Source: Malacoraja senta (Eukaryota). Taken from it: a stretch of 64,000 nucleotides of DNA. A model generated the notes under the pieces. That model was not told the DNA's origin and made no database searches. It saw nothing but the letters and a program-made list of their open reading frames with translations. The stretch spans positions 24,244,001 to 24,308,000 of the forward strand of contig CM075989.1 in NCBI GenBank assembly GCA_038087875.1. The letters are read 5' to 3'. Made by a program: the position numbers and the translations under genes. Positions 36,735-37,420 of this stretch are shown here, piece by piece (positions within the stretch are counted from its first letter, which is position 1; the number at the start of each line of letters is the position of its first letter).

Positions 36735-37420
36735 ATTTTCCGCAAAGACCGTTCCCTCCATAACTCCCTGGTCAATTCGTCCCTTCCCACCCAAACCACC
36801 CTCTCATCAGGTACTTTCCCTTGCAACCGCAGGAAATGCTACATTTGTCGGTTTTCCTTCCCCCTCGACTCCATCCAAGGACCCAAGCAGTCGTTCCAGG
36901 TGAGGCAGAGGTTGACCTGCACCTCCTCCAACCTCATCTACTGCACCCGCTGTTCCAGGTGTCAACTTCTCTACATCGGTGAGACCAGGCACAGGCTTGG
37001 CGATTACTTCGCCCAACACCTCCGCTCAGTTCGCATTAACCAACCTGATCTCCCGGTGGCTCAGCGCTTCAACTCCCCCTCCCATTCCGTATCCGACCTT
37101 TCTGTCCTGGACCTCCTCCATGGCCAGAGTGAGGCCCAACGCAAATTGGAGGAACAGCACCTCATATTTCGCTTGGGTAGTTTACACCCCAGCAGTATGA
37201 ACATTGACTTCTTCAATTTCAGGTAGTCCTTGCCTTCTCCCTCCATCCCCTCCGCTTCCCAGCTCACCCACAAGCCCACTGTCTCTGCCTCTTCCTTTAT
37301 TTTTCCTGCCCCCCACCCCCCCGACATCAATCTGAAGAAGGGTCTCGACCCGAAACGTCGCCTATTCCTTCTCTCCATAGATGCTGCCTCACCCGCTGAG
37401 TTTCTCCAGCATTTTTGTCT
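36735..37420 (+). mobile_element. 5'-truncated Penelope-like retroelement: linker, GIY-YIG endonuclease and 3' UTR/pseudo-LTR
   Basis: Open frame 36738-37226: FRKDRSLHNSLV...GTFPCNRRKCYIC...TCTSSNLIYCTRCSRCQLLYIGET...QHLIFRLGSLHPSSMNIDF*. This gives a Cys-rich linker plus LIY..YIGET GIY-YIG signature. It is followed by a C-rich UTR and the hammerhead-like repeat. Confidence 0.9.
37332..37359 (+). ncRNA. Putative minimal type I hammerhead ribozyme in the Penelope 3' end
   Basis: CTGAAGA-A-GGGT(CTCG)ACCC-GAAAC-GTC: CUGANGA and GAAA core boxes, stem II with a tetraloop, rudimentary palindromic stem III and a GUC cleavage triplet. Confidence 0.65.

What the first reader, a model, noticed from the sequence alone, without database searches (positions are those of the whole stretch)
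37332..37359. Minimal hammerhead-ribozyme motif in the Penelope 3' end, repeated more than 25 times in the window
Seen: about 105 nt after the GIY-YIG stop lies CTGAAGA-A-GGGT-CTCG-ACCC-GAAAC-GTC. Copies with an intact core occur at 13405-13432(-), 16541-16568, 19175-19202, 19618-19645 and 57969-57996, with many decayed copies elsewhere. Stem II varies in a structure-preserving way: GGGU-CUCG-ACCC, GGGU-CUUG-ACCC, GGGU-UUCG-GCCC, GGGU-UCCG-GCCC. The cleavage triplet stays NUH (GUC/GUU). Known: the hammerhead core is CUGANGA...GAAA...UH. Penelope-like elements carry minimal type I hammerheads with a tiny palindromic helix III, thought to act as dimers, and an extra A after A9 is a tolerated variant. 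Inference: this very abundant short repeat is a ribozyme-bearing Penelope pseudo-LTR, so the ADAMTSL3 pre-mRNA contains several sense-oriented candidate self-cleaving motifs. Caveat: helix I is only 2-4 bp in these copies.
Basis: partly seen in the sequence, partly recalled or inferred. Interest (0 to 1): 0.8.

Follow-up and report, generated by a model that had tools for sequence, protein, structure and literature searches.

The report
Penelope hammerhead relics in ray genome
A tiny hammerhead (self-cutting RNA) motif carried by a Penelope-type jumping gene occurs in about 58,000 intact-looking copies in this ray or skate genome; the type is already known, and where the copies begin suggests they were likely copied from uncut RNA and are likely inert inside the host gene.

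Summary
The motif is real (37332-37359, 105 nt after a GIY-YIG stop; 22 window copies within 3 mismatches, 0 in shuffles; 57,811 exact-pattern copies genome-wide). It is the known minimal type I hammerhead of Penelope-like element (PLE) pseudo-LTRs, here in a Neptune-type family of a batoid; an intact 1,212-aa RT+GIY-YIG copy carries it in both pLTRs. The core is unchanged across 5 subfamily clusters (0 of 11 positions differ, against 14 of 49 in the flank), but inserted copies decay, mostly at CpG. The inference that ADAMTSL3 pre-mRNA is cleaved is not supported: helix I is 1-2 bp in 5 of 6 intact window copies, the hammerhead fold is predicted disfavoured, and intact sense copies are not depleted (10 against 3). 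New detail: most copies are 90-130-bp pieces that begin 0-3 nt upstream of the core, at an initiator-like TCAGT, while at most 2.2% of young copies begin at the cleavage site; 64 of 85 head-to-head pairs carry exactly one tail. This points to run-off reverse transcription of uncleaved RNA from two internal start sites. New member of a known kind; cleavage untested.

The parts
36737..37421 (+). 5'-truncated Penelope-like element fragment (endonuclease 3' end plus pLTR), no tail
   Evidence: 90% identical over 687 nt to genomic copy L010 and about 80% to the intact young copy L165
36822..36848 (+). CX4CxxC zinc-finger-like linker (Neptune/Nematis type)
   Evidence: translation CNRRKCYIC; diagnostic according to PMC8557442 passages
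36933..37034 (+). GIY-YIG core of the endonuclease; the frame ends at stop 37224-37226
   Evidence: Pfam PF01541 E=0.02, below the curated cut-off; E about 1e-3 in longer copies
37227..37326 (+). Polypyrimidine-rich 3' UTR part of the pLTR
   Evidence: sequence; present upstream of the motif in the endonuclease-linked copies listed
37327..37332 (+). Initiator-like site (TCAATC here, TCAGTC in most copies); inferred transcription start at 37329 (position -3)
   Evidence: 5' ends of short copies pile up at -3..0; Inr consensus recalled; start not mapped experimentally
37332..37359 (+). Minimal hammerhead: CUGAAGA 37332-38, extra A 37339, stem II 37340-51, GAAA 37352-55, ACGU palindrome (empty helix III) 37355-58, C17 37359; predicted cut after 37359; helix I 1 bp here, 2 bp in most copies
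37360..37421 (+). 3' part of the pLTR, ending near the first inferred reverse-transcription start (about +90)
   Evidence: 3' ends of 349 sampled copies cluster at +78, +88..90, +119..120 and +127; young copies end at +91..95 or +127..131
13341..13536 (.). Head-to-head inverted pair holding the intact minus-strand copy 13405-13432
   Evidence: (I3)
16466..16632 (.). Inverted pair holding the intact sense copy 16541-16568
   Evidence: (I10)
19175..19265 (+). Short copy of the young type (UUCG loop, GUU triplet), intact core
19614..19708 (+). Short copy, intact core
57968..58059 (+). Short copy of the young type, intact core
62779..62974 (.). Head-to-head inverted pair with decayed cores (further pairs at 11792-11995, 38109-38279, 39063-39241)
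   Evidence: I2, I4, I5, I6
30589..50586 (+). ADAMTSL3 intron (between exon matches 30514-30588 and 50587-50742) that hosts the focal copy in sense orientation
   Evidence: tblastn of P0001; exon edges approximate

Best explanation
The motif is the minimal hammerhead of a Neptune-type Penelope-like retrotransposon's pseudo-LTR, and the copies in this ADAMTSL3 intron are likely inert by-products of reverse transcription of uncut element RNA. Shown: the motif sits in both pLTRs of intact elements, its core is fixed across subfamilies, and inserted copies decay, chiefly at CpG. Inferred mechanism: the element RNA starts at the A of TCAGT, 3 nt before the core, so the ribozyme fills the first 31 nt and helix I can be only 2 bp. 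The element protein nicks target DNA and primes reverse transcription inside the RNA at about +90 or +127 (the two ends of the 37-nt tail). Priming in the 5' pLTR runs off the RNA 5' end and leaves a 90-130-bp copy; priming of both DNA ends, one at each site, leaves a head-to-head pair with one tail; priming in a downstream pLTR gives long 5'-truncated copies such as 36737-37421. The ribozyme is predicted to be held in an inactive fold and would cleave, if at all, only as a dimer or with the element's protein, on RNA that does not become a short insertion.
For: Intact element L165: motif at 2529 and 6447 around a 1,212-aa RT+GIY-YIG ORF; L167 alike, and a 3.87-kb tandem array in L171-172. Descriptor search: 38 hits in 1 Mb, 0 in the reversed control, helix I 2 bp in 28 of 38. 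Clusters made from the flank only: 0 of 11 core positions differ, 14 of 49 flank positions differ (one-sided Fisher p=0.039), and the 5 differences inside the ribozyme are all compatible with the fold. Young subfamily, whole-genome exact counts: 7,607 from +11; 6,074 from 0; 4,523 from -3; 4,012 from -4; 3,399 from -11, i.e. loss per nt 2.0%, 9.4%, 11.3%, 2.3%; across the cleavage site 8,919 to 8,725. Unbiased 1-Mb sample: 4 of 349 copies start at +26..+30. Target-site duplications in 21 of 30 and 23 of 30 copies starting at -3. G just before -3 is in excess (205 of 511, 27.5% expected, p=9e-10), as an untemplated cap-derived G would give. Exactly one tail in 64 of 85 inverted pairs, two tails in 3 (p=4e-7). 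Stem II probability at most 0.05 in 6 of 7 window copies folded with short context, helix I 0.00 in all. ADAMTSL3: 39 sense against 34 antisense copies, intact 10 against 3. It fits the anole Poseidon element in vitro: two internal RT starts bounding the tail, both DNA strands extended, hammerhead protein-assisted and dispensable for insertion (PMC11167929).
Against: No transcription start or cap was mapped; the 5' ends spread over -3..0, not one base. The clean single extra G is seen in only 4 of 30 G copies against 0 of 30 T copies (p=0.11), and the G excess could come from filler or inverted junctions. The core-against-flank test rests on 5 rough clusters and one p near 0.04, and the core overlaps the likely promoter, so its conservation need not be catalytic. 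Long copies cannot tell an uncut RNA from a cut and re-ligated circle. Predicted pairing of the core with the tail holds in the young cluster (7 of 9) but not in older ones (4 of 23, 1 of 2, 3 of 7, 2 of 5). Copy 16541 is predicted to form stem II (0.83-0.93). Folding programs do not model three-way-junction tertiary contacts or protein help. Rfam finds no hammerhead family in the window at E up to 5.
Confidence: 0.7

Rival explanations
1. The ribozyme is essential in vivo: it cuts read-through or tandem RNA at successive pLTRs (as a dimer or helped by the protein), monomers circularise and template the long and partial-tandem copies; the short copies come from a separate uncut pool or from a polymerase stall. 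Partly compatible with the best explanation.
For: Core fixed across clusters; tandem arrays that would put two ribozymes in one RNA exist (3.87-kb array; 13 x 384 bp); this is the model proposed in PMC4209133; ligation would leave no scar in long copies.
Against: At most 194 of 8,919 young copies lack the bases before the cut site; 5 of 220 motif copies lack the normal downstream sequence, and only 2 of them clearly; the youngest, intact subfamily has GUU, recalled as the slowest NUH triplet; a circle has no end at -3.
Confidence: 0.3
2. The 31-nt stretch is kept mainly as the element's internal Pol II promoter (initiator plus downstream element) or protein-binding site; the hammerhead is vestigial in this lineage.
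For: It lies directly behind an initiator-like TCAGT; its ACGT resembles the downstream element RGACGTGY of Drosophila Penelope (PMC2377424); the unconstrained N7 and the extra A are also fixed; helix I is 2 bp and the fold is disfavoured.
Against: All five subfamily changes inside the motif keep pairing or the NUH rule (U-A to U-G twice, C17 to U, two loop bases), which a DNA promoter does not demand; related PLE motifs do cleave in vitro (PMC4209133, PMC11167929).
Confidence: 0.2
3. One reading: sense-oriented intronic copies cleave host pre-mRNAs such as ADAMTSL3 to a degree that matters.
For: 10 intact sense copies lie in the 163 kb of the gene examined; about 58,000 intact-pattern copies genome-wide; copies are read through in polyA RNA of a related species on both strands.
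Against: No depletion of sense or intact-sense copies (39 against 34; 10 against 3, p=0.09 in the direction opposite to purging, one gene only); helix I 1-2 bp in 5 of 6; inverted partners bury some cores; decay after insertion is close to neutral (5.6% core, 6.7% flank, G12 lost in 26%); single min-HHRs showed no cleavage in PMC4209133.
Confidence: 0.08
4. The 5' boundary of short copies is a 3' splice site (polypyrimidine tract, CAG), and the copies come from spliced RNA.
For: The sequence looks like an acceptor; Drosophila Penelope has an intron ending at helix I (PMC4209133).
Against: In 17 of 30 T-preceded and 12 of 30 G-preceded copies the target-site duplication abuts or overlaps the start, so no upstream exon was copied, and these copies keep the AG that splicing would remove; upstream-sequence clustering found polypyrimidine tracts, inverted arms and host repeats, no shared exon.
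Confidence: 0.04

Closest known systems
[quoted passage not shown]
   Same: Type I core, extra nucleotide between 9 and 10.1, G10.1-C11.1 pair, palindromic 15.2-16.2 with no loop 3, place in both pLTRs, mostly solo copies, some opposite-strand pairs.
   Different: Stem II 4 bp (7-8 in Schistosoma, 6 in D. virilis); helix I 2 bp (4-5 typical, 2 in D. virilis); 57,811 exact-pattern copies against about 4,000 and 9,000 reported for coelacanth and Xenopus (different descriptors, not strictly comparable); no cartilaginous fish named in the text parts read or in supplement file 2 (file 1 could not be searched).
PAc, Poseidon element of Anolis (Frangieh et al. 2024, PMC11167929)
   Same: Two internal RT starts bounding a tail, both target strands extended, uncut RNA as main template, no RNA-seq ends at the cut site.
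   Different: PAc is Penelope/Poseidon clade with the ORF starting inside stem II; here the CX4CxxC linker points to Neptune/Nematis, the first ATG lies 163 nt after the core, and the evidence is genomic rather than biochemical.
Neptune/Nematis EN+ PLEs (PMC8557442)
   Same: [quoted passage not shown]
   Different: Clade not fixed by a tree here; a long proline-rich N-terminal half makes the ORF 1,212 aa, while most of the nearest relatives listed (about 54% identical at best) are 670-1,000 aa.
Non-LTR retrozymes (bioRxiv 10.64898/2026.07.22.740005; PMC7229834 seen as listing only)
   Same: Short pLTR-derived sequences with a type I hammerhead; the 384-bp array L261 fits the definition.
   Different: The window copies are dispersed monomers or inverted pairs with target-site duplications in young relatives, not head-to-tail arrays.

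Membership tests
PLE minimal hammerhead (min-HHR) | Conserved core CUGANGA ... GAAA ... UH | tested here: met
   all 11 core bases intact in 131 of 279 aligned copies
PLE minimal hammerhead (min-HHR) | Extra nucleotide between A9 and 10.1, and G10.1-C11.1 pair | tested here: met
   majority state in all 5 clusters
PLE minimal hammerhead (min-HHR) | Palindromic 15.2-16.2 with empty helix III | tested here: met
   ACGU; CG insert in 37 of 38 descriptor hits, CGCG in 1
PLE minimal hammerhead (min-HHR) | Helix I (4-5 bp typical; 2 bp in the D. virilis variant) | tested here: inconclusive
   2 bp in 28 of 38 hits; third pair broken in 185 of 197; 1 bp at 37332
PLE minimal hammerhead (min-HHR) | Located in both pLTRs of a PLE | tested here: met
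   L165, L167, L171-172
PLE minimal hammerhead (min-HHR) | Self-cleavage as dimer or with protein help | not testable with these tools
   needs an in vitro assay; folding predicts that other structures are preferred
Rfam hammerhead families | Match to a covariance model | tested here: not met
   no hammerhead family among 25 matches at E up to 5
EN+ Penelope-like element | Single ORF with RT and C-terminal GIY-YIG | tested here: met
   P0121, PF00078 E=6e-4 and PF01541 E=1.3e-3, both under the curated cut-offs
EN+ Penelope-like element | Partial tandem pLTR, 30-40-bp tail, inverted 5'-truncated copies | tested here: met
Neptune clade | CX2-5CxxC linker between RT and EN (shared with Nematis) | tested here: met
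   CNRRKCYIC in the window, CNRKRCNTC in P0121
Neptune clade | RT phylogeny with named reference elements | not tested
   no named Repbase or Dfam references available; hits are mostly unnamed
Non-LTR retrozyme | Head-to-tail tandem units each with a full hammerhead | tested here: not met
   not met for the window copies; met for the separate locus L261

The most novel reading that the evidence does not exclude
In this batoid PLE the hammerhead occupies the first 31 nucleotides of the capped RNA and works as a protein-released switch: folded shut against the tail it leaves the RNA intact as a template, whose run-off copies have seeded several hundred thousand hammerhead-bearing fragments (one tail per inverted pair, from a dimeric enzyme using two start sites); when released it removes the cap and sends the RNA to decay or circularisation.
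Probability: 0.25. Interest if true: 0.7.

Novelty: new member of a known kind. Interest (0 to 1): 0.4.

Why it matters
The function of PLE hammerheads is an open question (PMC8557442 calls it unclear; PMC11167929 found it dispensable in vitro). This genome holds thousands of near-identical young insertions whose ends record the template: they start just upstream of the ribozyme and almost never at its cut site, and inverted pairs carry one tail each. That extends the anole in vitro result to a second PLE clade by genomic evidence and offers an intact vertebrate element for direct tests. For the host gene the result is negative: the intronic copies look like ordinary repeat debris.

Tried and rejected
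Rfam scan of the window: no hammerhead hit; the hits are mostly miRNA-family matches, all below gathering score, several on the inverted pairs. First TSP1 motif scan missed the host exons; a wider scan found them. Search for other hammerhead families in 1 Mb: only this superfamily, so covariation between families could not be tested. Sequencing runs: no RNA holder listed. One polyA raw-read run from a related species and three contig sets were laid on L165:2200-3400: 10,143 reads laid, both strands about equally over the motif, 93% running on into unlike sequence, no pile-up of ends at the start or the cut site; the library type and the mass of read-through copies make this insensitive, so it is not counted as evidence on cleavage. 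Splice-acceptor reading of the 5' boundary rejected. Copies ending at the cut site: 5 of 220 lack the usual downstream sequence, no excess. The satellite family that ends at GTC is one amplified event, not a class. Earlier findings of the scan: nothing. Luense et al. (RNA Biol 14:1499) is not held and was seen only as a citation in PMC6765202; it may list cartilaginous-fish motifs. A source for the GUU cleavage rate was not found (searches show only that GUU is a cleavable NUH site).

Full report
Positions below are counted from the C of CTGAAGA (0 = window 37332); the predicted cut lies between +27 and +28.

1. Observation. The motif is at 37332-37359, 105 nt after the stop of a 171-codon frame (36711-37226) with a CX4CxxC linker and a weak GIY-YIG match. 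The window holds 8 matches to a strict 25-nt pattern, 22 copies within 3 mismatches (0 in 100 shuffles), 37 within 6 mismatches and 59 blastn pieces. Six copies have a full core and triplet. The host gene is ADAMTSL3 on the + strand: one exon is 94% identical to sawfish and skate ADAMTSL3, so the genome is a ray's or skate's; 7 exons lie in the window. Genome-wide the degenerate 28-nt pattern matches 57,811 times, control 0. In 100 evenly spaced 10-kb stretches from 18 large contigs there are 349 pLTR-end copies, which would scale to roughly 680,000 (inference) and 38 descriptor-perfect motifs against 0 in reversed sequence.

2. The element. Searches with the endonuclease and RT parts gave 99,674 and 11,194 first-look candidates (not copy numbers). 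Of 18 stretches fetched around long frames, L165 and L167 are whole: 5' pLTR with the motif, a 37-nt tail, a short leader, an ORF (1,212 aa from the first ATG in L165) with RT and GIY-YIG, and a 3' pLTR with the motif. L171-172 is a 3.87-kb tandem array. The linker marks the Neptune or Nematis clade according to passages of PMC8557442; no tree was built. The focal copy is a 5'-truncated, older fragment, 36737-37421, 90% identical to L010.

3. Is it a hammerhead? It has each sequence feature that PMC4209133 lists for metazoan PLE min-HHRs (parts 1-2 of 4 read): core boxes, an extra base after A9, G10.1-C11.1, and a palindromic 15.2-16.2 with no loop 3. Helix I is 2 bp in 28 of 38 hits, as in the D. 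virilis variant. I clustered 279 copies that span the motif (from the 1-Mb sample, 180 kb of gene neighbours and the window) on flank columns +30..+78 only. Between the 5 cluster majorities 0 of 11 core positions differ and 14 of 49 flank positions differ (p=0.039); the five differences inside the ribozyme are two wobble-preserving changes, two loop bases and C17 to U. This suggests selection on the source elements, with the caveat that the same bases probably overlap the promoter. After insertion there is little sign of constraint: departures from the cluster majority are 5.6% in non-CpG core, 6.7% in non-CpG flank, and 26% at G12, which sits in a CpG. Rfam has no match.

4. Would the intronic copies cut? 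Helix I is 1,1,4,2,1,2 bp in the six intact window copies. ViennaRNA gives stem II a probability of at most 0.05 in 6 of 7 copies folded with short context (16541 is the exception; 43464 rises to 0.33 with longer context) and helix I 0.00 in all; the purine-rich core pairs with downstream pyrimidines or with an inverted partner, and the hammerhead-like dimer lies 7-11 kcal/mol above the best dimer fold. Over 163 kb of ADAMTSL3, sense and antisense copies number 39 and 34, intact ones 10 and 3: no purging of sense ribozymes, in one gene. Single min-HHRs did not cleave in PMC4209133, and 8 of 9 Xenopus retrozyme dimers did not cleave in the 2026 preprint (parts 1-3 of 5 read).

5. What the copy ends record. 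In the unbiased sample 148 of 349 alignments start at -6..0 and 4 at +26..+30 (some -5/-6 starts are points where subfamilies diverge). Of 211 copies covering the core start, 168 lack the upstream polypyrimidine tract. For the young subfamily, exact whole-genome counts fall by 2.0% per nt from +11 to 0, 9.4% from 0 to -3, 11.3% from -3 to -4 and 2.3% from -4 to -11, but by only 1.1% per nt across the cut site (8,919 to 8,725). Among 62 young copies, 31 run past -11, 17 start at -3..0, 4 at -5, none at -10..-6 and 10 at +4..+11 (this search could not see starts after +11). Copies starting at -3 have target-site duplications of 7-28 bp (21 of 30 and 23 of 30), often abutting the start, so nothing was spliced on. 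The base before -3, where not the element's C, is G in 205, T in 118 and A in 188 (by subtraction) of 511; the G excess fits an untemplated cap-derived base (signature recalled from L1 work) but a clean single extra G was seen in only 4 of 30. TCAGTC matches the initiator consensus (recalled), and Drosophila Penelope has an internal TATA-less promoter in its pLTR (passages of PMC2377424). 3' ends of young copies fall at +91..95 or +127..131. Of 85 head-to-head pairs 64 have one tail, 18 none and 3 two (48% one-tail expected, p=4e-7; 22 of 26 among better-preserved pairs). Loose ends at -2 and -3 also appear in reads and contigs of other species.

6. Mechanism. Shown: anatomy, counts, end distributions, target duplications, one tail per pair. 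Inferred: transcription from -3; internal priming at +90 and +127; run-off at the RNA 5' end; one start site used on each DNA end, as a dimeric enzyme would allow; an uncut template. These steps match what was measured for the anole element PAc (PMC11167929, parts 1-2 of 4 read). Untested: whether this ribozyme cleaves at all. Long copies cannot exclude cut-and-ligated circular templates, so a role on another RNA pool stays open (rival 1), as does a mainly promoter-like constraint (rival 2).

7. Novelty. PLE min-HHRs in fishes, solo copies and opposite-strand pairs are in print (PMC4209133); tails and inverted copies too (PMC8557442, passages); the 2026 preprint found retrozymes in the one chondrichthyan it sampled. 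Searches and the supplement search found no description of this batoid family, of its copy number or of short copies ending at a start site next to the ribozyme; Repbase, Dfam, Luense et al., supplement file 1 of PMC4209133 and the preprint's supplements could not be seen and may hold some of it.

Noticed in passing
L261:718-5730 (G000:C1 near 28.90 Mb): Head-to-tail array of 13 units of 384 bp, 99% alike, each with an intact young hammerhead: fits the definition of a non-LTR retrozyme and is the natural place for cis dimers.
   Followed up: partly
L008, L013, L014, L022, L023, L034, L041:5821-5848, L044: A repeated unit (period about 4.9 kb in L044) on several small contigs holds a PLE fragment whose homology stops right at the predicted cut site, with GAAA changed to GTAA; one ancestral event, possibly a copy of a cleaved 5' product, possibly chance.
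   Followed up: partly
window 35160-35295 (-) and 41890-42015; L084, L104, L144: Tandem minisatellite of about 66 bp made from pLTR positions +20 onward; it lacks the CUGANGA half, so it is not a ribozyme array.
   Followed up: partly
L177:2055-6218: Head-to-head inverted pair of long (about 2 kb) young copies, the same geometry as the short pairs.
   Followed up: no
L165:2526-2660: The young element's first 135 nt are predicted to close into one domain in which the catalytic core pairs with the end of the tail (z = -2.2); not clearly kept in older clusters.
   Followed up: partly
L165:2685-2700: The first ATG overlaps a splice-donor-like AAG|GTATGC; an intron near the ORF start was not tested.
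   Followed up: no
window 52391-52689 and 58962-59188 (also 46243-46616, 20317-20631, 44286-44535): Other inverted-repeat elements with 47-100-nt arms; the first two share a terminal arm sequence and look like MITEs or non-autonomous DNA transposons.
   Followed up: no
window 4414-4848 (-) and 34213-34599 (-): Frames resembling C-terminal parts of LINE reverse transcriptases (CR1/L2-like, by recall).
   Followed up: no
window 13341-13536, 35370-35448, 39084-39220, 62832-62921: The inverted pLTR pairs form long hairpins in the pre-mRNA on either strand; three score as sub-threshold miRNA look-alikes; they could be editing or small-RNA substrates.
   Followed up: no
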